Sequence record: OR352953.1
DNA length: 64,000 bases
Strand: one strand, 5' to 3'
From: Escherichia phage AV123
The stretch's first letter is position 1. Each line of letters starts with the position of its first letter. Positions 36,717 to 44,882 of this stretch are shown piece after piece. The translations under genes and the position numbers were made by a program. The notes below the pieces were generated by a model, which was given only the letters and a program-made list of their open reading frames with translations, did no database searches and was not told the origin of the DNA.

Positions 36717-37148
36717 TTAATCAGTGAAAATTACGCTTACATCTTCTTTAGAGAAGAGTTTATGATCTTCACCTTTTGTCTCAAGAGTTTCATACAGGTT
36801 AAGAAGTTCTGAAACATCCTTCTCTACCAGTTTCTTCAATGTTGCAATTTTCTGTTTGCGATTCTTAATACGTTCAGCTACAACCTTACGTTGGTATCCG
36901 GCAGTACGATAACCTGAGAAAGTTACACCAGTGAGACTTGCAGTTACAGGATCGTAATGACGTTCAATCTGAAATTTATTAAAAGGTACAGCGTCATCAC
37001 GAATAATCTTACCGCCATTACTTACTTGACGAAGACCAGTAACTTGTTCCAGTCGTGCCATAGAAATCTTTGGAGACAGACCAGAGTCCAGGTTCATACC
37101 GTTGTTAATCAGTGCTTTCAGGGTGATTTTGCTGTTCAGTGTACTCAT
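36717..37148 (-). CDS. hypothetical protein
   Basis: 143 aa ORF. Start at 37148 is preceded by GGAGG and overlaps the 3' end of the methyltransferase gene by 44 nt. Confidence 0.4.
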   Translation of the reverse strand: MSTLNSKITLKALINNGMNLDSGLSPKISMARLEQVTGLRQVSNGGKIIRDDAVPFNKFQIERHYDPVTASLTGVTFSGYRTAGYQRKVVAERIKNRKQKIATLKKLVEKDVSELLNLYETLETKGEDHKLFSKEDVSVIFTD

Positions 37149-37836
37149 TTAGTCGTTCCTCCGCTTGCTTAAAAATATTTACATCGGCTTCACAGCCTAA
37201 GTATTCTCTACCTGTTAAAAGTGCCGCAACTTGTGTTGTTGCACTTCCAGAGAAGAAGTCTAAGACTACATCTCCTTCGTTGGTGTGTATATTAATAAGG
37301 TCACAAAACAAAGTCAAGTGCTTTTGTGTTGGATGAAAACGATCTGCTCCTTGATAGATAGGATACTCAAACACACCCTTATGGTAGGAAGCATTGAAGG
37401 TTGGCTTCGAACCTTTAACACAAACAATAGCCATCTCTTTAGCGTTACTAAGGTAGTTAACACCACTGTTGATGGGTACAGGGTTTGTTTTAATCCATTC
37501 AATAGTACGGAACATACGAAAACCAAGCGGTTCAAGGATTTCACGTAGCTCCTGGATCTTCCAGATATCATACCAAACTATGCAAGTACCACCTTTTCTA
37601 AGCACCCTATAGGCTTCTTTGAATACTTCTTTAAAGTAAGGAATATCTACAACATCCCAATCACCAAAGTTGTAAGATACACGGAATCTATCTGTATCTT
37701 TTCCAGTAGGCTCTCCAGATTGAAAATTTGTATCACGAGAAATAGCATATGGTGGGTCAGTAAGAATCAAATCTACACTGTTGCTTTCGAGGGTTTGCAG
37801 GTAGTTTAATGCGGTGTTGTTTACAAATTCGCTCAT
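37105..37836 (-). CDS. DNA methyltransferase, beta-class (N6-adenine or N4-cytosine)
   Basis: Motif IV LILTDPPYAIS precedes motif I VVLDFFSGSATT (order IV then I is typical of beta-class amino-MTases). RBS AAGGAGA. No adjacent restriction endonuclease recognised. Confidence 0.75.
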   Translation of the reverse strand: MSEFVNNTALNYLQTLESNSVDLILTDPPYAISRDTNFQSGEPTGKDTDRFRVSYNFGDWDVVDIPYFKEVFKEAYRVLRKGGTCIVWYDIWKIQELREILEPLGFRMFRTIEWIKTNPVPINSGVNYLSNAKEMAIVCVKGSKPTFNASYHKGVFEYPIYQGADRFHPTQKHLTLFCDLINIHTNEGDVVLDFFSGSATTQVAALLTGREYLGCEADVNIFKQAEERLNEYTEQQNHPESTD

Positions 37837-37853
37837 TATATCTCCTTCAAAGA

Positions 37854-37877
37854 AAAGGAGCCGTTAGGCTCCTTATA
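37854..37877 (-). terminator. intrinsic terminator (minus strand)
   Basis: GGAGCC-gtta-GGCTCC hairpin with a U tract on the minus strand. Same stem sequence as the 36684 terminator. Confidence 0.5.
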
Positions 37878-37896
37878 TTCACACAATATTTAACTA

Positions 37897-38844
37897 TTAG
37901 AAACAGTGCAGGAAGTTTCGACCATACTGCAAACCAATAGGAGCAAATGGGATATCATCATCGAAATCTTGAACAACAGGTTCTGGCTCTTTCGGTGCTG
38001 GCTCTTTCTTCTCTACTTTTTTAGTTTCTTTCTTAACTTCTTGTACTGGGGTAGACATTCCACGGATAGCAGCAGCTACTTTATCAGACAAAGCAAGAAC
38101 TTCACGAGCAGCTTCAATAATCTCTTCTGCCGTTACAGTTTTACCTGTATGATCACGACAAGCATTAAGAATTGCGTGTCCAACTGAAGCACCAAGATCA
38201 TAATCAGTTACATCAACGCCACGATCTTTAGCAATTTCAGCTTTCAGAGTAACAGTTGCAGATTGTACCACACCAGCCAAATCGAAAGCATCACCTTTCA
38301 CACCAGCACGTAGAAGCTCCAGAGCGCCGTTTACAGCGTGTCCTGTTTCAATCCCTACGGTATCACGTTTTTTGTAGTTAGGCTTGCTACCATCGTTATT
38401 AGATGGCTTATTTCCACCTTTTGAAGAAGATTGTGCTTGCTGAACACCTTCTGTTGAAAGAATAGTGATTTTACCTTTAGAGGAATTGTAGTATGTTTTG
38501 CCATTCCATTCAGAAGGTTTAACATCCATAGTTAGTTCTACACCTTTTTCGATAGTAACCCACTTATCACCATCTTTAACTTGCAGGTTTTCATGTTCTG
38601 GGTGCAGTTTAACTTCACCTAAGCTAACCCAAACACCTTTATCATCAGCACCAGCACCTTTCTCTTTAATAAGCAGAGATGCTTTGTGAGTTGATTCAAT
38701 TTTCTTATCTGGCTGACCTGCAACCTTAATATAAGAGACTTTCATTTCATCAAACTTATCTAGTTTGACATATTCGACAATACCTTCAGCCCAGAATGCT
38801 TCTTTTTTAGTACGGCGGTCGATTTCAGAATTAATTACTGGCAT
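37897..38844 (-). CDS. single-stranded DNA-binding protein-like protein carrying an SSB C-terminal-tip motif
   Basis: Contains DFDDDIPF, identical to the last 8 residues of E. coli SSB, preceded by a Lys/Glu/Pro-rich linker; here it is followed by 15 more residues (APIGLQYGRNFLHCF). N-terminal half is beta-rich (possible OB fold). RBS AGAGGAG. Confidence 0.45.
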   Translation of the reverse strand: MPVINSEIDRRTKKEAFWAEGIVEYVKLDKFDEMKVSYIKVAGQPDKKIESTHKASLLIKEKGAGADDKGVWVSLGEVKLHPEHENLQVKDGDKWVTIEKGVELTMDVKPSEWNGKTYYNSSKGKITILSTEGVQQAQSSSKGGNKPSNNDGSKPNYKKRDTVGIETGHAVNGALELLRAGVKGDAFDLAGVVQSATVTLKAEIAKDRGVDVTDYDLGASVGHAILNACRDHTGKTVTAEEIIEAAREVLALSDKVAAAIRGMSTPVQEVKKETKKVEKKEPAPKEPEPVVQDFDDDIPFAPIGLQYGRNFLHCF

Positions 38845-38860
38845 AAATTCTCCTCTATAA

Positions 38861-39259
38861 TTACATTACTTTAACACAAAACTCTCGTAAAAGAGTAGCG
38901 TCAGTTTCTTCCAACAGGTATTTACCAAGACCAATACCAAAGCCTATTTCACCACTTTCAAAATGGAGAATTTGTATCTTTTCTCCACCAAGATTAATTA
39001 CTTTTGCTTTTCCAGGATTATCCAAAACATCTCGTATTGTATCCTGTAATAACATAAGCTCACGTTTTGTGATAGTGGTTTCAGATATCTCTTTGTTTTC
39101 TACTCTCACTGTTAAACGATTGTATCCACCAAAGAGACACAGTATTTGAATAAAAAAGGTATTATCTTGAGGTTCAACATCTTTTTTGGTTAGCTCAAGA
39201 CGATTAGTTTCTCTACTGTAGAACGTCTCGACTAAGATTTTAGAACGATTATCTGTCAT
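38861..39259 (-). CDS. hypothetical protein
   Basis: 132 aa ORF, co-directional and tightly spaced with its neighbours. Confidence 0.4.
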   Translation of the reverse strand: MTDNRSKILVETFYSRETNRLELTKKDVEPQDNTFFIQILCLFGGYNRLTVRVENKEISETTITKRELMLLQDTIRDVLDNPGKAKVINLGGEKIQILHFESGEIGFGIGLGKYLLEETDATLLREFCVKVM

Positions 39260-39302
39260 TCAAGTCCTCATAATAACACATAATTATAATGTTTGTCAAC
39301 AC

Positions 39303-39896
39303 TTAAATTTTAAATTCTTCATTGTTAAATGAATCCAGTGTACGTACTTCTGGTTCTTTGGGAATGAAAACGTCTTTTACAAAACGGAACATAGGGAAAC
39401 GTTCTGCCATTTTACGGACGTGTGCTTCTTTACCTGTGTATCGGTGATTAATAGTGCAAATATTAGTCTTCAATGCAAATTCAAAATCTGGATGATATAC
39501 ATAGTTTTGACCATCCCAGTAACACAGGCAGATAGCTACATCAAAGTTCCATACGATTTCACTGCGTACACCTTCTTCCATGATCATAAAGTTAAACTTA
39601 AGATCTTTATAGTATGCTTCAAATACCCATTTCAAATGTGGTAGTTCGGCATAAGTGTGTTCTGTTTGCTTAGTAAGTTGTTTCACATTACGTGCACCAA
39701 CACCCAACATCAAAAATTTCTCTACTAATACGAGTGTATTGTGGTTAGGCATACGCAAGTAAATGTCAATATCTTGCGCAGGTTTCTCTAATCGCCAATC
39801 ACGTACAGCGCCGCCAGCTACAATTGCAAACGGATCTACCAGTTGGCACATACGTAATACTTCTAAAGCTCGTACTTTTTGATCTTCAATATTCAT
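39303..39896 (-). CDS. minimal nucleotidyltransferase (Pol-beta superfamily, CCA-adding/poly(A) polymerase head-domain-like)
   Basis: AIVAGGAVRDWRLEKPAQDIDIYL matches the GGxVRD...DxD signature of class II tRNA nucleotidyltransferases. Only 197 aa, so no body/tail domains. RBS TAGGAGA. Confidence 0.5.
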   Translation of the reverse strand: MNIEDQKVRALEVLRMCQLVDPFAIVAGGAVRDWRLEKPAQDIDIYLRMPNHNTLVLVEKFLMLGVGARNVKQLTKQTEHTYAELPHLKWVFEAYYKDLKFNFMIMEEGVRSEIVWNFDVAICLCYWDGQNYVYHPDFEFALKTNICTINHRYTGKEAHVRKMAERFPMFRFVKDVFIPKEPEVRTLDSFNNEEFKI

Positions 39897-40033: not shown

Positions 40034-42613
40034 CTAGTGACAACTGGCCCATGAGTTACCAACATCGTAACCAGCAGTGAGAGGTACATTAAGATTGTAA
40101 TACTCACCAGCTTTATTAACAGCGATAGATGCTAATTCTCCAGCACGACTGTAGGCTGTAAACCAACCACCTTTTGGAGACTCATGTACGTTAGCCCAAA
40201 TCTTGCCAGTACGTTTCTCTTCCTCTTCTTTCCAGGCATTAACTTTATCCAAACATTCTTTATCAATTTTCTTTTGTTCATCTGGATCATCAACTTGAGT
40301 CCAACCTAAAGATTCTTTAGAGAACCATTTAAAATGCACCAGATCACGAGTTACTTCAAGCTGTGCTTCATCGTGATATGCAATCATTTGTTGAACGAAT
40401 GACTTATTTTTCCAGTCATCAACAAAAAAGTCAACAGCTAATCCTTCTTCTTCGATAAGATCGTCGTAGATAACCATTGCTCTTTTTGCACAAATAACAC
40501 CACCACTCTGGAACAGAGAGTTAAGTATTGCGTGTGCAGATCGTGTAGGTACTTTTCTACCATCAATACCAAGAATGTATTTCTTACCTGTTTTAACCCA
40601 AAAATCATGCAGACGTTCTTTAAGAAGCGCAAGAGGTTTTGCAGCTTCCCAGAAAGCATCGTATACAAGCTGTCCTGTATACATATCACTACCTATAGTT
40701 TTTGCTACTTTTGCAGCTTGAGCACCATAAGTAATACCATACTTAACAGATTTAGCAGGGCTTCGTTCAAACTTACGACCAATAGTGTCAGAAATACGTC
40801 GAGCCATCATTGTATGAACATCATTAGGTTTTTCCAATAACAGAGCATTACAATATTCGTGTGGTTCCTGCTCGTACCGCCAACAGTAGTGTGATTCTAT
40901 TTTTGCCTCAAGAGAATCAAAGTCATAACCAATTTGGAAATATTTTGGAACTTCTACACCAAATAAGTTACGCATTTCATATCCGTACAGAGATGTTACA
41001 CGTGGGATATTTGCTACTAACCTATGTTTCATACGAGACGTAGCTGCATCACACGTTGCAGCAGGAGTTGGTATACGACCATCAGCCCTTACTGCCGCCA
41101 GATAACCTTTATCGTAATCCTCTTCATCTTCTTCCCAATCAGCACCACCCCCTAGGATAGAGTTTCTACGATGTTTATACGTAAGATACTGCACAATCTG
41201 CGTAGCATAAGGAAACTTTTCACCTAGTGCTTCCAAGTTAGGACAAATATCCTTCTCTTGCCCTTTTGTAAAGGAAGGGTTAGTAAGCACTTTAACACCA
41301 CGACCTTTAGCTTTAGCAATACGATCTCTTAGTTTCCATTCCAAAGTTTCTGGTGTGCACTCCAGATGATCACATCTGTCCTGGCAGAAGTTAGATGCTA
41401 ATGTTTGATCAACATAGTCACGAATAGCTTTCTCCATTTGTGCTTCATCTTTCTTAATCTTAGTGCCAGATTTAAGAGTGATATCTTTATCTTTATATTC
41501 AGATGGACTCCAACCTAAACCAACCAGCCAATTTTTAATATGCGTAGTGTCGTCTAAAGTAGCAGGTACTGTAGGATCACAAATAGGTTCCTCTGCTGGA
41601 ATAGGGAGTTTAAACTCTTTACCTAATGCAAATAACCACCAACCATCTTCTTTTTGTACAAGTTCACCAGAATGTTTCTCTGCAAACTTTACCATGTTAC
41701 TTGAAGGTTCACCATTCTTTTTAAACTGTAGTTTAGGTGGAATGAATGATTTCAAATAACCTTTAGTAGCAGGTTTAGGAGGTAGCACAGGTTCTGCCTC
41801 TAAACGACATGCTTCCATTCGAGCATCCAGATCACGAATATTATCTTCTGCTTGTTTCATATTGAAAGCAAAGCCACGGTGCTCTTGACGTGTAATAATA
41901 TCAGCTACACGTTGTTCTAAGTTAAATGGTTCAGACCACTTACTATAATCACCCCACTCTTCCATCAAATAACGGAACACTGCGGTGTTAGCTTTGTTAT
42001 CGTAAATACAGTAATACAGCATATCTGCTGCAAATGTTCTAAATCTTTCAGCTTCAGGAATGTTTTTTCTGAAATCAATTTTAACATCCCCTCCAGCCTT
42101 CTTAGATAACTCTGCCAGACTATGACCACCGAAGCGATCAGGGTTTAGTGTCTTACTTAAGATCATAGTATCACAAATTTCAATGTTACTATTACCCCAA
42201 GTATTGTACTTAACACTGTAGTTGAGTTTAAAAAATAATTTAATTGCCAGTAAGTCGAAGTTAATGATGTTGTGTCCAACTACTTTGGTAATTTTATAGT
42301 TTGAATTACCTTTAAATTTACCTGTTCCATTTACAAAATCAGGAAAATCTTTAAGAGGGAAATGGGTATATTCTAAATGCTCATATTCCTCCAGTCGGTA
42401 TTCATACTTTCCGTCAGTCTCAACATACGGACGACCATCGAAAAGATATTTATCACCATCATGGAAAGCAATAATCTCTCCAGTATCATGACTTTCGCAC
42501 ACAATACAGTGCATTGCAAAACTATCTTTTAAACGATATGGACTTGCCAAGTAATCTACACTTTCGTCATTAAGCAAGTTGTTACTTTCAATGTCGAAAG
42601 TAAAAGCTCCCAT
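40034..42613 (-). CDS. DNA polymerase, family A, with 3'-5' exonuclease domain
   Basis: 859 aa. Exo I motif FDIES near the N-terminus; motif A-like DFDSLEAKI; motif B-like RSPAKSVKYGITYGAQ; motif C HDE (VAYHDEAQLEV). RBS AAGGAGGGAGA. Confidence 0.8.
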   Translation of the reverse strand: MGAFTFDIESNNLLNDESVDYLASPYRLKDSFAMHCIVCESHDTGEIIAFHDGDKYLFDGRPYVETDGKYEYRLEEYEHLEYTHFPLKDFPDFVNGTGKFKGNSNYKITKVVGHNIINFDLLAIKLFFKLNYSVKYNTWGNSNIEICDTMILSKTLNPDRFGGHSLAELSKKAGGDVKIDFRKNIPEAERFRTFAADMLYYCIYDNKANTAVFRYLMEEWGDYSKWSEPFNLEQRVADIITRQEHRGFAFNMKQAEDNIRDLDARMEACRLEAEPVLPPKPATKGYLKSFIPPKLQFKKNGEPSSNMVKFAEKHSGELVQKEDGWWLFALGKEFKLPIPAEEPICDPTVPATLDDTTHIKNWLVGLGWSPSEYKDKDITLKSGTKIKKDEAQMEKAIRDYVDQTLASNFCQDRCDHLECTPETLEWKLRDRIAKAKGRGVKVLTNPSFTKGQEKDICPNLEALGEKFPYATQIVQYLTYKHRRNSILGGGADWEEDEEDYDKGYLAAVRADGRIPTPAATCDAATSRMKHRLVANIPRVTSLYGYEMRNLFGVEVPKYFQIGYDFDSLEAKIESHYCWRYEQEPHEYCNALLLEKPNDVHTMMARRISDTIGRKFERSPAKSVKYGITYGAQAAKVAKTIGSDMYTGQLVYDAFWEAAKPLALLKERLHDFWVKTGKKYILGIDGRKVPTRSAHAILNSLFQSGGVICAKRAMVIYDDLIEEEGLAVDFFVDDWKNKSFVQQMIAYHDEAQLEVTRDLVHFKWFSKESLGWTQVDDPDEQKKIDKECLDKVNAWKEEEEKRTGKIWANVHESPKGGWFTAYSRAGELASIAVNKAGEYYNLNVPLTAGYDVGNSWASCH

Positions 42614-43109: not shown

Positions 43110-44882
43110 TTAATAAGAACCATCAGGAATATTCTCTGGGTTACTTGTATATTGATCGTAATCGTGAAGTGTAGCTGTTTTAATCTCATAGAAGAAACTA
43201 CCTGCTGCACCAGTCTCTGAGAACTCACGGTTCTTTAGAATGTAGCAATATGTACGGTTACGTTCCATAGGATCTTCAGCTTGTTTATCACGCTCCAGCG
43301 CAATTGTAATACCAGCACCTTTAGCAAGGAAGCTACTACCCATTGCATCATCTTCTACAATATGTTCATTACTATTGTTAGAAGACTTTTTAACGTGTGA
43401 AATTACAACAATGGTAATTGCGTACTCTTTCATAATGCGTTTCAGCCACGTCGCAAGTTCCTCTTGTTGTGACACGTCCATACCAGAAAGCAAATCAGAA
43501 TAAGGGTCGATAACAAGAATGGTTACTCCGAAATAAATAATCATTTCCAGAACCTTCTCTTTAATCACATCTACGTTAGCTCCACGATCATCACAAACAT
43601 AGAAACGTGGTGTTCCATCTTCTCGTTCGTAAAAATCACGAATCTTTTCTTCATTATCTTTTAAAATCTTTTCCTTCTCTTCTTTTGTTTTACGGTGAAG
43701 AGGGATATGCAAGAATGAAGACAGCAAGTTACGAGAATACTTCTTATACGTTGCCTCCAAAGATAAAATACCAAGAGTATGTTCTGGGTGTGCAAGAATA
43801 ATGTGTTTCGTAATCTCGTTAACCAACAGTGTCTTACCGATACTTGTTTTTGCAAGTATAACAGTAATTTCTTCTTCTACCAAGCCTCCACCTAACATAT
43901 TAGAAGCAACACGCATGAATGGAGGAAGGGTGATCATTTTAGCTTCCAGGCATTCCAGGGCTGCTTCATACAGTACGTTAGAAGCGTAAACACCAGCAGG
44001 TGTGTACAGTTTAGCTTTGAAAAAGCGATCAATAAAATGATCAATTTTTCCTTCTACTAGTGCCTGGTTAGGATCTTTAACATCCGTTAGTTCCATCACG
44101 TAAACTTTATTACGTGGTAAGATTTTAACACATTTCTCAACTGCTGCACGTCCAGCTTCATCATTATCCATACATAGAACAATCTTTTTAAATTGATCTA
44201 AGAATTTATAACGATGTTGAAGCTGCTTATGCAGAGATGTTTCGCCACAAGTACCAGATACTACAGCAGGAACAGGATATTTACCACCCTTATTATAATC
44301 TTTTAGCATCTGTGTTGCAGCCAGCATATCGTGTTCACCACCAACGATTAGAATAGTACCGCTGTGGTTACGATATTTAAACTCCCCAAAAAGATCACAA
44401 TCCTTTCCTGTTTCACCGATAGGATGCGAGAAATCTTTTGGATCGATACGTTGTTTATACCCAGCAATATTGTAATCTTTAGTTGTAGGGTATAGTGTTG
44501 AAATTACTTCGCCAGTAGCCTCATCGTACATATAGCGTACACCGAAAGGCTTAGAGATATCTTCACGAATACCACGATAACCTTTTGGATTAGTTCCAGT
44601 GCTGGCTTTTAGTTTATCATGTACTTCTTGATTAAACTCACTACCCAAGATATCCTCCTCTTCAATTTCTTCGCCGTGTGCATTTAACCATTTTTGATCA
44701 GGGATAGTAAAGCCACAAGAAAAACAATGTGCGCCTCGATGGTCTTCATCGGCATCTAAGCCATATACCATCAAATTGTTTTGTGATCGATCACGCCCTC
44801 CTTTCATACAACGAGGACACCCAGTATGTCCTTCTTGACTTAGATCAATGTTATACCCATATTTATTTACAACATAAGACAC
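43110..44882 (-). CDS. DNA primase-helicase (bifunctional: zinc finger/TOPRIM primase plus DnaB-like helicase)
   Basis: N-terminal Cys4 zinc finger (CPRCMKGG...HCFSCGF). Walker A in the C-terminal half (AKTSIGKTLLV). 590 aa, next to the DNA polymerase gene. Confidence 0.7.
   Translation of the reverse strand: MSYVVNKYGYNIDLSQEGHTGCPRCMKGGRDRSQNNLMVYGLDADEDHRGAHCFSCGFTIPDQKWLNAHGEEIEEEDILGSEFNQEVHDKLKASTGTNPKGYRGIREDISKPFGVRYMYDEATGEVISTLYPTTKDYNIAGYKQRIDPKDFSHPIGETGKDCDLFGEFKYRNHSGTILIVGGEHDMLAATQMLKDYNKGGKYPVPAVVSGTCGETSLHKQLQHRYKFLDQFKKIVLCMDNDEAGRAAVEKCVKILPRNKVYVMELTDVKDPNQALVEGKIDHFIDRFFKAKLYTPAGVYASNVLYEAALECLEAKMITLPPFMRVASNMLGGGLVEEEITVILAKTSIGKTLLVNEITKHIILAHPEHTLGILSLEATYKKYSRNLLSSFLHIPLHRKTKEEKEKILKDNEEKIRDFYEREDGTPRFYVCDDRGANVDVIKEKVLEMIIYFGVTILVIDPYSDLLSGMDVSQQEELATWLKRIMKEYAITIVVISHVKKSSNNSNEHIVEDDAMGSSFLAKGAGITIALERDKQAEDPMERNRTYCYILKNREFSETGAAGSFFYEIKTATLHDYDQYTSNPENIPDGSY

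What the first reader, a model, noticed from the sequence alone, without database searches (positions are those of the whole stretch)
37897..38844. SSB-like protein with an internal copy of the E. coli SSB C-terminal tip (DFDDDIPF)
The 8-residue acidic tip that recruits many host replication and repair proteins to SSB is present verbatim, preceded by a Lys/Glu/Pro-rich linker, but is followed by 15 more residues (APIGLQYGRNFLHCF) instead of ending the protein. In SSB the free C-terminal Phe carboxylate is important for partner binding, so this is either a real extension that masks or regulates the tip, a sequencing frameshift, or processing. It also points to an enterobacterial-type host.
Basis: partly seen in the sequence, partly recalled or inferred. 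Interest (0 to 1): 0.45.

Follow-up and report, generated by a model that had tools for sequence, protein, structure and literature searches.

The report
Conserved cap on phage SSB tip
A phage replication protein carries the exact tail-tip that E. coli SSB uses to recruit repair and replication enzymes, but capped by a 15-residue peptide. That peptide is real, under selection, and attached to the same tip in many unrelated phage DNA-binding proteins, and I found no description of it in the open literature.

Summary
ORF 37897-38844 (-) encodes 315 aa ending ...DFDDDIPF(300)-APIGLQYGRNFLHCF(315).

- **Source:** The window is a phi92-like E. coli myovirus (Justusliebigvirus).
- **Gene:** It closes the replication module (family-A polymerase, Toprim/DnaB primase-helicase). 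The AlphaFold model has an OB-like beta domain, a 4-helix domain and a disordered K/E/P-rich linker. Pfam SSB does not match. It belongs to PHROG 4477.
- **Not a frameshift:** About 55 near-identical genomes keep the extension. About one fifth of family members, down to about 30% identity, carry it. The rest stop exactly at ...IPF.
- **Portable:** The same tail, usually 15 aa (AP[IV][GT]L[QPM][YF]....[IL][HYN].[ILFM]-COOH), follows the tip in at least eight other PHROG families. Five of these are annotated SSB, including canonical prophage SSBs of Enterobacterales, Vibrio and marine Gammaproteobacteria. It also ends Vequintavirinae primase-helicases.
- **Selection:** Synonymous sites are saturated while key residues are fixed. 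The tip is as conserved in capped as in uncapped proteins.
- **Coupling:** The tail is found only directly after the tip.
- **HNH nuclease:** One family repeatedly sits at this junction.

Function is inferred. The most likely role is a cap and extra linear motif that changes what the tip can bind.

The parts
37897..38844 (-). SSB-like gene, 315 aa (PHROG 4477; phi92 gp156 homologue)
   Evidence: ORF. phrog_4477 E=2.6e-101. 96.8-100% identical proteins in phi92-like phages.
38455..38844 (-). Residues 1-130: beta-rich OB-like domain, the presumed ssDNA-binding part
38365..38454 (-). Residues 131-160: disordered Ser/Gly/Lys/Asn-rich inter-domain linker. Longer homologues carry an extra domain here.
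   Evidence: pLDDT 48-71. Insertion of about 100 aa in the 380-425-aa homologues.
38065..38364 (-). Residues 161-260: conserved four-helix domain (G168, G218 and G222 invariant; motif YDLGASVGHAILNAC)
   Evidence: Helices 163-179, 186-208, 215-230 and 239-260, pLDDT above 90. Invariant columns. Function not determined.
37969..38064 (-). Residues 261-292: disordered Lys/Glu/Pro-rich linker
   Evidence: Sequence. pLDDT 55-65 and 34-51.
37945..37968 (-). Residues 293-300: DFDDDIPF, identical to the E. coli SSB C-terminal tip but internal here
   Evidence: Matches the end of E. coli SSB in PDB 1eqq. As conserved in capped as in uncapped homologues.
37900..37944 (-). Residues 301-315: APIGLQYGRNFLHCF, the 15-residue C-terminal tail (cap)
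   Evidence: Conserved in about 20 of 100 family members and in at least eight other PHROG families and in primase-helicases. Zero nonsynonymous against 7 synonymous changes versus Mt1B1_P17. Pooled pN/pS 0.41 with saturated pS. Predicted disordered and not docked.
37848..37874 (-). Intrinsic terminator-like hairpin (AAGGAGCC-TAAC-GGCTCCTT plus T-run) that ends the transcription unit
   Evidence: The same hairpin follows the short-form allele in L141.
38861..39259 (-). 132-aa gene of unknown function (phrog_16560), always directly upstream of the SSB-like gene
   Evidence: Same neighbour in L002, L004, L005, L141 and L142.
39270..39299 (-). Sigma-70-like promoter match (TTGACA-18-TATTAT, 11 of 12) upstream of the two-gene unit
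   Evidence: This is a consensus match only, not evidence of function.

Best explanation
The gene encodes the SSB-like protein of a T7-style replisome (family-A polymerase plus primase-helicase) in a phi92-like E. coli phage. It has an OB-like ssDNA-binding domain, a helical domain and a disordered linker that ends in a perfect copy of the host SSB tip.

The 15 residues after the tip are a real, selected accessory module: a C-terminal short linear motif that exists only in combination with the tip. By extending the chain it removes the free alpha-carboxylate of the tip's Phe, which host SSB-interacting proteins use as an anchor. It also adds a conserved hydrophobic and aromatic segment (AP-phi-G/T-L-x-Y/F ... 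phi-H/Y/N-x-phi-COOH).

The most likely effect is to switch the tip from a general recruiter of the host SSB interactome to a capped, composite motif with a narrower or different partner set. Because the carriers are so unrelated, that partner is probably a host factor.

Shown: the anatomy, conservation, coupling to the tip, peptide-level selection, portability between protein families, and dispensability (natural short alleles).

Inferred: ssDNA binding, loss of binding to carboxylate-dependent partners, and the existence and identity of a tail-specific partner.
For: Identity of the protein:
- The gene lies downstream of DNA polymerase A and a Toprim/DnaB primase-helicase.
- OB-like fold.
- Weak structural hits to phage SSB, DUF669 and DUF2815 proteins.
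- Some GenBank relatives are annotated SSB.

The tail is real and selected:
- It is identical in about 55 genomes.
- It is present in 20 of 100 homologues down to about 30% identity.
- It has the same 15 aa as in Mt1B1_P17, with 7 synonymous and no nonsynonymous differences, while the rest of the two proteins is 61% identical.
- Over 53 distinct tail DNAs, pS is 0.76 and pN 0.31. Leu5 is invariant and position 12 is I or L.
- Tail length is narrow: 64 tails of 15 aa, 24 of 14, 17 of 16 and 3 of 17.

Portability:
- The same tail follows the tip in phrog_44, 7364, 18154, 743 and 9002 (all annotated SSB) and in phrog_2544, 32668 and 3284.
- For the PHROG matches that reach the C-terminus (phrog_4477, 2544, 18154, 7364, 3284), the profile's last position aligns with ...IPF.
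- It also ends Vequintavirinae primase-helicases.

Coupling to the tip:
- 7 of 9 APIGLQYG matches in IMG/VR are C-terminal and directly follow D[DE].PF. The other 2 are internal chance matches.
- The tip is equally conserved with and without the tail.

The carboxylate matters: SSB-Ct pockets share a basic lip that anchors the alpha-carboxyl group, and deleting the terminal Phe abolishes binding (PMC10164576).

A host-side partner is plausible:
- Carriers include lambdoid prophages, Vibrio podoviruses and large myoviruses that share little except gammaproteobacterial hosts.
- In bacterial genomes the second half of the tail tracks the host clade across different SSB families.
Against: - No binding, cleavage or ssDNA-binding data exist.
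- AlphaFold gives no docked conformation for the tail, which is uninformative for partners acting in trans.
- The tail is dispensable. Most family members, and close relatives such as L141 and phAPEC8, end at ...IPF, and phage Bas106 is viable with the tail split off from its SSB.
- If the cap simply inactivated the tip, the tip should drift in capped proteins. It does not. So either the tip still acts while internal, or it is exposed later.
- E. coli lytic phages (GRNFLHCF, GKSRIHAL) and E. coli prophages (PRHAIHAI) differ in the second half of the tail, which weakens a single-host-pocket model.
- The tail does not fit the beta-clamp motif; its Gln is not conserved.
Confidence: 0.45

Rival explanations
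1. Removable pro-peptide or degron. The tail is cut off, or targets the C-terminus to an AAA+ protease such as Lon or ClpXP. The host-type tip is then exposed only at a certain time, or the level of a potentially toxic tip-bearing protein is kept low, for example in lysogens.
For: - The tip is as strongly conserved in capped as in uncapped proteins, as expected if the tip is eventually used with a free carboxylate.
- The tail is hydrophobic and aromatic, ends in a non-polar residue at a fixed distance, and is disordered. By my own recollection these are typical degron features.
- Carriers are DNA-binding proteins that could be toxic when mis-expressed: SSBs, a primase-helicase, and in Bas106 an HNH nuclease.
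- Many carriers are prophage SSBs.
Against: - I know of no cytoplasmic E. coli endoprotease that cuts precisely at IPF|AP.
- A generic degron would not need an invariant AP-x-G/T-L-x-Y/F core.
- A generic degron would not be restricted to positions directly after an SSB tip.
- Nothing here shows processing.
Confidence: 0.2
2. Selfish hitch-hiker. The tail-coding DNA spreads with a homing HNH endonuclease that targets the conserved tip-coding sequence. Replacing ...TTT-stop by ...TTT-GCN-CCN makes the allele immune to cutting. The peptide itself does little for the protein.
For: - One HNH family (34-72% pairwise identity) lies exactly at this junction in unrelated phages. Examples are after the tail in Mt1B1_P17, L142 and KE23 (there on the primase-helicase), and overlapping the stop of a short allele in nepoznato.
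- In Bas106 the HNH lies between ...IPF* and PVTLPFPRHAIHAI. That tail DNA is identical over the last 14 codons, and 94% identical over 161 nt, to the NM-3 SSB gene.
- rV5 gp208 shares the N-terminal module of this family.
- Co-conversion would explain how one tail reached many protein families.
Against: - Most tail-bearing genes have no such HNH nearby. There is none in this window and none of this HNH family in the IMG/VR loci.
- The peptide is under purifying selection with saturated synonymous sites in HNH-free lineages, which an immunity scar would not need.
- The tail has a fixed length and a conserved C-terminal pattern.
- This idea may explain how the tail spreads. It does not explain why it is maintained.
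Confidence: 0.15
3. A T7-style replisome handle. As with T7 gp2.5 and gp4, whose acidic Phe-terminated tails both dock on the DNA polymerase, the tip plus tail is the handle by which the SSB-like protein (and in Vequintavirinae also the primase-helicase) binds the phage's own family-A polymerase.
For: - The replisome gene set matches that of T7: PF00476 polymerase and a Toprim plus DnaB_C primase-helicase.
- In Seunavirus and Mydovirus phages both the SSB-like protein and the primase-helicase end in tip plus tail (searches show two places per record in KpS11 and Seu621).
- In T7 both tails bind the polymerase's basic patch (PMC12339929; bioRxiv 10.64898/2026.02.22.705581).
Against: - The same tail is most common on canonical SSBs in the Erf-SSB-Abc2 recombination modules of lambdoid prophages. 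By my own knowledge, lambdoid phages encode no DNA polymerase; this was not checked in these loci.
- In this window's phage the primase-helicase ends ...ENIPDGSY, without tip or tail.
Confidence: 0.1
4. Artefact. A sequencing or assembly frameshift, or a missed stop, creates a false extension of a protein that really ends at ...DDIPF.
For: Most homologues do end exactly at ...IPF. For the PHROG matches that reach the C-terminus, the profile ends there too.
Against: - The extension is identical in about 55 independently sequenced genomes.
- It is conserved as a peptide across families with synonymous variation.
- Short alleles have their own stop (TGA) directly after the Phe codon followed by different sequence.
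Confidence: 0.01

Closest known systems
Bacterial and phage canonical SSB (Pfam PF00436), e.g. E. coli SSB
   Same: OB-type N-terminal domain by predicted fold, a disordered linker, and the acidic tip DFDDDIPF, which is identical to the host's. The gene lies among replication genes.
   Different: There is no sequence match to PF00436. An extra conserved four-helix domain is present. The tip is internal and followed by 15 residues, so the Phe alpha-carboxylate that SSB partners anchor on is absent. Oligomeric state is unknown.
PHROG 4477: SSB-like proteins of rV5-like and phi92-like myoviruses (phi92 gp156, rV5 gp209, phAPEC8 'SSB')
   Same: Full-length homology (E=2.6e-101) and the same position next to the polymerase and primase-helicase genes.
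   Different: The family profile ends at ...DDIPF. This protein belongs to the minority (about 20 of 100) that carries the tail. No member has been characterised, as far as I could find.
Phage T7 gp2.5 (SSB) and gp4 (primase-helicase) acidic C-terminal tails
   Same: The replisome type is the same, and an acidic, Phe-containing C-terminal tail sits on the SSB. In related Vequintavirinae the primase-helicase carries the same tail as the SSB-like protein, as in T7, where the two tails share the polymerase as a partner.
   Different: T7 tails end with the Phe. Here the Phe is capped. The tail sequence is unrelated. In this window's phage the primase-helicase lacks it. No structural match to gp2.5 was found.
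Tailed canonical prophage SSBs of Enterobacterales, Vibrio and marine Gammaproteobacteria (...DFDDDIPF-APVTLPFPRHAIHAI and similar; annotated only as 'single-stranded DNA-binding protein')
   Same: The same tip-plus-tail module of 14-17 residues with the same core pattern.
   Different: The DNA-binding domain is different (true PF00436-type SSB). The gene context is a recombination module (Erf-SSB-Abc2 or exonuclease). The second half of the tail differs.
HK620 SSB and Sak4 (a phage SSB whose last six residues recruit its cognate annealase)
   Same: It is a precedent for a phage SSB C-terminus tuned to a partner other than the host interactome (PMC5928155).
   Different: HK620 SSB ends in NDYPPF-COOH, a variant free tip with no extension.

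Membership tests
Canonical SSB (Pfam PF00436) | Sequence match to the SSB OB-domain profile | tested here: not met
   No Pfam family at E<=1. The profile search of PDB matched E. coli SSB only over the last 23-25 residues.
Canonical SSB (Pfam PF00436) | OB fold in the DNA-binding domain | tested here: inconclusive
Canonical SSB (Pfam PF00436) | Acidic tip (D-D-D-I-P-F) at the extreme C-terminus with a free alpha-carboxylate | tested here: not met
   The tip sequence is present at residues 293-300 but is followed by 15 residues.
Canonical SSB (Pfam PF00436) | Binds ssDNA; homotetramer | not testable with these tools
   This needs EMSA or fluorescence titration and SEC-MALS.
PHROG 4477 (rV5/phi92-type SSB-like proteins) | Full-length profile match and conserved gene position | tested here: met
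   E=2.6e-101. The gene order polymerase ... nucleotidyltransferase, orf132, SSB-like gene is the same in phAPEC8, Mt1B1_P17, nepoznato, L141 and L142.
T7-type replisome with shared acidic tails (gp2.5/gp4/gp5) | Family-A DNA polymerase plus a fused Toprim/DnaB primase-helicase | tested here: met
   PF00476 in window 40034-42613. PF13155 plus PF03796 in window 43110-44807.
T7-type replisome with shared acidic tails (gp2.5/gp4/gp5) | SSB and primase-helicase carry the same kind of C-terminal tail | tested here: not met
   The window's primase-helicase ends ...NPENIPDGSY. The feature is met only in Vequintavirinae relatives.
T7-type replisome with shared acidic tails (gp2.5/gp4/gp5) | The tail binds the DNA polymerase | not testable with these tools
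   No complex prediction or binding assay was available.
Tip-plus-tail module (defined here) | [DE][DE].PF followed directly by AP-phi-[GT]-L-x-[YF] and a 14-17-residue run to a hydrophobic C-terminus | tested here: met
   The window has DFDDDIPF-APIGLQYGRNFLHCF. The same module occurs in other families.
Beta-clamp-binding motif (QL[SD]LF / QxxLxF) | Conserved Gln followed by Leu/Phe at fixed spacing | tested here: not met
   The Gln position is P in 28, Q in 15 and M in 10 of 53 tails, and the spacing does not fit. The consensus is recalled from my own knowledge.

The most novel reading that the evidence does not exclude
The 15-residue tail is a previously unrecognised, horizontally mobile regulatory module, an 'SSB-tip cap'. 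Phages of Gammaproteobacteria would add it to or remove it from host-mimicking SSB tips on SSBs of many folds and on primase-helicases. This would toggle between engaging the host SSB interactome and either hijacking one specific host factor or hiding the tip, for example from nucleases recruited by SSB or from defences keyed to phage SSBs. A dedicated HNH homing endonuclease would help move it between genes.
Probability: 0.3. Interest if true: 0.75.

Novelty: new variant of a known kind. Interest (0 to 1): 0.58.

Why it matters
The SSB C-terminal tip is the central hub of bacterial genome maintenance, and its free terminal Phe carboxylate is considered essential for partner binding. This work finds a conserved, selected peptide that caps exactly this tip. 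It occurs in roughly 150-190 of the 50,697 phage records searched, in prophage SSBs of about 50 bacterial species, and on unrelated protein scaffolds.

This suggests that phages have a way to retune or gate the hub. Identifying what the capped tip binds or avoids could reveal:
- a new host target of phage takeover;
- a way phages separate their own ssDNA transactions from host repair nucleases or from SSB-sensing defences (Hna, AbpAB, retron-Eco8 and DARNA are known to respond to phage SSBs);
- a natural on/off switch useful for recombineering pairs of SSB and annealase.

The recurrent HNH endonuclease at the junction also offers a tractable case of a homing enzyme that targets a short, conserved protein-motif-coding sequence across different genes.

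The idea is directly testable with two peptides and one phage mutant.

Tried and rejected
1. **Frameshift or sequencing error:** rejected.
2. **Chance occurrence of the tip:** rejected. The tip is conserved across the family, with P299 and F300 invariant.
3. **Pfam membership in SSB:** no hit.
4. **Solved structure of a relative, or of any tailed tip:** none. PDB profile searches match only uncapped tips, including engineered myosin-SSB-tip fusions.
5. **Literature:** full-text searches for IGLQY, GLQYGR, PFAPIGL, RHAIHAI, RHAIYVI, LPFPRH and GLPYPR, and for SSB-Ct plus phage plus extension, found nothing relevant. This covers open-access text only.
6. **Intramolecular docking of the tail:** two AF2 runs (53-sequence alignment, and a 20-sequence alignment of tailed proteins only) leave residues 301-315 disordered at pLDDT about 36-51. 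This gives no support and is only weak evidence against.
7. **Beta-clamp motif:** it does not fit.
8. **A second tailed protein in this window:** a six-frame regex scan found none.
9. **Tail as a stand-alone motif:** the APIGLQYG scan found C-terminal copies only after the tip.
10. **'Short alleles are decayed long alleles':**
    - The 19 nt after the Phe codon in phAPEC8 match the start of the tail DNA at 14 of 19 positions after a 1-nt shift. L141 matches at about 10 of 15.
    - This is suggestive of truncation but not conclusive.
    - The two short alleles share this post-stop sequence although they belong to different genera.
11. **HNH linkage as a general rule:** rejected. No member of this HNH family is in the window or in the IMG/VR prophage loci.
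12. **Technical failures:** a first tail-only protein search failed because the query was under 40 aa. The later word-indexed search returned only short fragments, so the exhaustive profile search was used instead. The afdb50 fold library was unavailable.
Full report
**1. The observation**

The minus strand of the window holds a single 315-codon ORF at 37897-38844. It has a GAGGAG ribosome-binding site 6 nt before the ATG. The protein ends ...KKEPAPKEPEPVVQ-DFDDDIPF(293-300)-APIGLQYGRNFLHCF(301-315)-stop.

The tip equals the last eight residues of E. coli SSB (PDB 1eqq ends ...EPPMDFDDDIPF). In a 53-sequence family alignment P299 and F300 are invariant, and D293, D296 and D297 are conserved in at least 90% of sequences. 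So it is not a chance match.

**2. Source and context**

The 1.7 kb around the gene is 95-99% identical to 55 phage records. These are mostly E. coli phages of the genus Justusliebigvirus, including alia and JohannJBalmer. The protein itself is 96.8% identical to phi92 gp156.

In the annotated relative JohannJBalmer the gene lies in a leftward block: DNA primase/helicase, a small ORF, DNA polymerase, three small ORFs, this gene, then a Dam-like methyltransferase.

In the window itself:
- 40034-42613 is a family-A polymerase (PF00476).
- 43110-44807 is a Toprim plus DnaB_C primase-helicase.
- 37105-37836 is an N6/N4 DNA methylase.

A promoter-like site (39299-39270) and a terminator-like hairpin (37874-37848) bracket a two-gene unit. 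That unit is a 132-aa protein of unknown function (phrog_16560) followed by the SSB-like gene.

**3. What the protein is**

Pfam gives nothing. PHROGs places it in phrog_4477, 'unknown function', at E=2.6e-101. Some GenBank relatives are annotated SSB and most are 'hypothetical'.

AlphaFold2 with a 53-sequence alignment (mean pLDDT 85) gives this layout:
- a beta-rich domain (residues 1-130, pLDDT 90-97);
- a disordered linker (131-160);
- a four-helix domain (161-260, pLDDT above 90);
- a disordered C-terminal 55 residues.

Together with the replication context and the host-type tip, 'SSB-like' is a fair description. Membership of the canonical SSB family is not supported by sequence, and ssDNA binding is untested.

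**4. The extension is real and optional**

Among 100 homologues from the 5.8-billion-protein collection, 78 end exactly at ...[IVL]PF. Twenty carry a tail of the same kind, for example:
- APIGLQYGRNFLHCF
- APIGLQYGMNLLHAMP
- APVGLQYARHAISALYA
- APIGLPYGRNFIHCI
- APVGLQYGRSKIYAL
- APIGLMYNNAYIHCI

Two more have odd ends. Tailed and untailed forms are interleaved in the family. In Phapecoctavirus, Mt1B1_P17 and ZCKP1 are tailed, while phAPEC8, ESCO13 and nepoznato are not. rV5 is tailed (APVGLQYGKSRIHAL).

The window and Mt1B1_P17 share only 61% protein identity but have identical 15-residue tails, encoded with 7 synonymous and no nonsynonymous differences. A frameshift or sequencing artefact is therefore excluded.

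Short alleles have TGA right after the Phe codon. The next bases resemble the beginning of the tail DNA (14 of 19 in phAPEC8 after a 1-nt shift; weaker in L141). A deletion then runs up to the shared terminator. This suggests truncation of a long allele but does not prove it.

**5. The tail is a portable module tied to the tip**

A profile of the last ~50 residues of tailed fragments was searched against 1.84 billion cluster representatives. It found 91 proteins at E<=1e-3. Their N-terminal parts are diverse.

PHROG typing gives phrog_44, 7364, 18154, 743 and 9002 (all annotated SSB) and phrog_2544, 32668 and 3284 (unknown function). For the matches that reach the C-terminus (phrog_2544, 18154, 7364, 3284, like phrog_4477), the profile's last position aligns with ...IPF, so the tail lies outside the family model.

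NCBI-named fragments with tails are called 'single-stranded DNA-binding protein' in Salmonella, E. coli, Proteus, Providencia and Klebsiella.

Three scans gave the distribution:
- **Phage records.** tblastn of two 27-aa tip-plus-tail queries found 146 and 190 records covering at least 80% of the query.
- **IMG/VR.** Most of the 80 loci read are canonical prophage SSBs ending ...DDIPFAPVTLPFPRHAIHAI or ...APIGLPYPRHAIYVI. An Erf-like annealase lies directly upstream in 38 loci, with Abc2 or an exonuclease downstream (examples ECP1, NM-3, BT-1011).
- **Bacterial genomes, one per species.** The same pattern gave 82 matches. Of these, 53 are within 24 residues of a stop, and about 50 of those are genuine C-terminal tails. 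They fall in Enterobacterales, Vibrio, Alteromonadales and Aeromonadales, with a few others. The 29 internal matches look like chance.

The tail also ends the DNA primase-helicase of Vequintavirinae: K54_rec1 ...DDDTPFAPIGLQYAKHAIYVI and KE23 ...DDDTPFAPIGLQYANHAIYVL. Seu621 and KpS11 have two tip-plus-tail places per genome.

Conversely, 7 of 9 IMG/VR matches to APIGLQYG are C-terminal and directly follow D[DE].PF. The other two are internal chance matches. In this window only the SSB-like protein has the tail.

**6. Selection**

Over 53 distinct 15-codon tail DNAs, pS is 0.76 (saturated) and pN is 0.31. Leu at tail position 5 is invariant and position 12 is I or L. Positions 7, 13 and 15 are restricted to Y/F, H/Y/N and I/L/F/V. 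Positions 1-2 were fixed by the search pattern and do not count.

Tail length is 15 in 64, 14 in 24, 16 in 17 and 17 in 3 of 108 tailed proteins. The ten residues ending in ...IPF are as conserved in tailed as in untailed proteins: P-M-D-F-D-D-D-I-P-F.

So the peptide is maintained for its own sake, and so is the tip beneath it.

**7. An endonuclease at the junction**

One family of small HNH-type endonucleases (34-72% pairwise identity) lies exactly at the 3' end of tip or tail genes in unrelated phages:
- after the tail in Mt1B1_P17;
- overlapping the tail's last codons in L142 and KE23 (there on the primase-helicase);
- overlapping the stop of a short allele in nepoznato;
- in the lambdoid phage Bas106, between an SSB ending ...DDSDIPF* and a remnant PVTLPFPRHAIHAI, which now forms the C-terminus of the endonuclease.

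The Bas106 remnant DNA is identical over the last 14 codons, and 94% identical over 161 nt, to the tailed SSB gene of NM-3. rV5 gp208 shares the family's N-terminal module.

This looks like a homing endonuclease that targets the conserved tip/tail-coding DNA. It could move the tail between genes by co-conversion. The enzyme is absent from the window, and no member of this family is in the IMG/VR prophage loci. So it may explain how the tail spreads, but not why it is maintained.

**8. How it probably works**

Established knowledge: SSB-interacting proteins bind the tip through a hydrophobic pocket for the terminal Phe, a basic lip that anchors its alpha-carboxyl group, and a basic ridge for the Asp residues. 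Removing the terminal Phe abolishes binding (PMC10164576).

A 15-residue extension removes that carboxylate. I therefore infer that the tailed tip cannot dock in the standard way on the general host interactome. The conserved tail would supply contacts for something else.

Two points suggest that the 'something else' is a host factor rather than a shared phage protein. The carriers share little beyond gammaproteobacterial hosts. In bacterial genomes the tail's second half follows the host clade across different SSB families: PRHAIHAI in Enterobacteriaceae, PRHAIYVI or PRHLINVI in Morganellaceae, and PALL[NLM][CA]M in marine genera. This is inference.

Against a simple masking model, the tip stays perfectly conserved under the cap. 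That fits either a composite motif in which the tip still contributes, or later exposure of the tip by processing.

AlphaFold does not dock the tail on the protein itself. The tail does not match the beta-clamp motif.

Natural short alleles and the split gene in Bas106 show that the tail is accessory, not essential.

I put about 0.45 on 'cap plus extra linear motif that retunes partner choice'. I put 0.2 on 'pro-peptide or degron', 0.15 on 'mainly a homing-endonuclease hitch-hiker' and 0.1 on 'T7-like handle for the phage polymerase'. The T7-like rival rests on the parallel with gp2.5 and gp4. It is weakened because the tail is commonest in lambdoid prophage recombination modules. By my own knowledge lambdoid phages encode no polymerase; I did not check these loci.

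**9. Comparison with what is known, and novelty**

The protein is a new, uncharacterised member of an SSB-like family specific to rV5-like and phi92-like myoviruses. It is not a PF00436 SSB by sequence.

The tail is the interesting part. I found no mention of it in 8 million full texts by sequence string or by topic, and no solved structure contains it. Database annotation treats tailed proteins as ordinary SSBs. The literature search covers open-access text only, so prior description elsewhere cannot be excluded.

I rate it a new variant of a known kind: an SSB C-terminal interaction tip with a conserved, portable cap. Interest is moderate to high for people who work on SSB hubs, phage replication and recombination, and SSB-sensing defences. 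The function remains to be shown.

Noticed in passing
L004:3492-3899, L005:3385-3816, L008:2559-3011, L009:1566-2045, L142:3444-3872, L003:2600-3223: One family of small HNH-type endonucleases (34-72% identity; rV5 gp208 shares only the N-terminal module) sits exactly at the 3' end of genes ending in the SSB tip or tail, in unrelated phages. In Bas106 it is inserted between ...IPF* and the tail remnant PVTLPFPRHAIHAI. It is likely a homing endonuclease that targets the tip/tail-coding DNA.
   Followed up: partly
L007:518-2581 and L008:524-2578: The DNA primase-helicases of Vequintavirinae (K54_rec1, KE23) end in DDDTPF plus APIGLQYA[KN]HAIYV[IL]. This is the same tip-plus-tail module as on the SSB-like protein of those phages and recalls the shared tails of T7 gp4 and gp2.5. 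The window's own primase-helicase (43110-44807) ends ...ENIPDGSY instead.
   Followed up: partly
P0135, P0137-P0141, P0157; L042, L047, L075, L079, L080, L165, L187: Other tail classes follow the same tip. One is a 16-residue [LIM]G[HY]GYGVCRKAIYAIS class without the AP start. Others are very short: AP[AV]WLI, APVRLI, APVKLI and APQVL, found on DUF669-like proteins and alphaproteobacterial SSBs.
   Followed up: no
window 39303-39896 (-): A 197-aa nucleotidyltransferase (phrog_1614) lies two genes upstream of the SSB-like gene. Its homologues in L141 and L142 carry precomputed hits to Pfam PF26128 'Gad2' (the name suggests an anti-Gabija protein). The window copy itself gave no Pfam hit at E<=0.001.
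   Followed up: partly
window 38861-39259 (-): A 132-aa protein of unknown function (phrog_16560) is always found directly upstream of the SSB-like gene in Stephanstirmvirinae relatives. It is apparently co-transcribed with it, since a promoter-like site at 39299-39270 and a terminator at 37874-37848 bracket the pair. It is a candidate partner of the SSB-like protein.
   Followed up: no
window 38065-38364 (-), residues 161-260: A highly conserved four-helix domain (GxETGHAxNGAL ... YDLGASVGHAILNAC; G168, G218 and G222 invariant) has no informative structural match. Longer homologues (380-425 aa) insert a further domain of about 100 residues between it and the OB-like domain.
   Followed up: no
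L144-L223 (bacterial genomes): The second half of the tail follows the host clade across different SSB families. It is PRHAIHAI in Enterobacteriaceae, PRHAIYVI or PRHLINVI in Proteus and Providencia, and PALL[NLM][CA]M in Vibrio, Pseudoalteromonas, Oceanisphaera, Glaciecola and Rheinheimera. E. coli lytic myoviruses use yet other versions (GRNFLHCF, GKSRIHAL).
   Followed up: partly
window 36717-37148 and 37105-37836 (-): The Dam-like N6/N4 methyltransferase gene directly downstream of the SSB terminator overlaps the next ORF (143 aa, phrog_20244) by 44 nt. This whole downstream segment is variable between relatives. phAPEC8 and L141 have nothing there before the tail-fibre genes, and others have the HNH gene.
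   Followed up: no
P0223 (120 aa): A chimeric small protein has an N-terminus from phrog_1138 (unknown function) fused to the last ~35 residues of a tailed SSB (...NEPPMDFDDDIPFAPVTLPFPRHAIHAI). It is another sign that the C-terminal module recombines independently of the DNA-binding domain.
   Followed up: no
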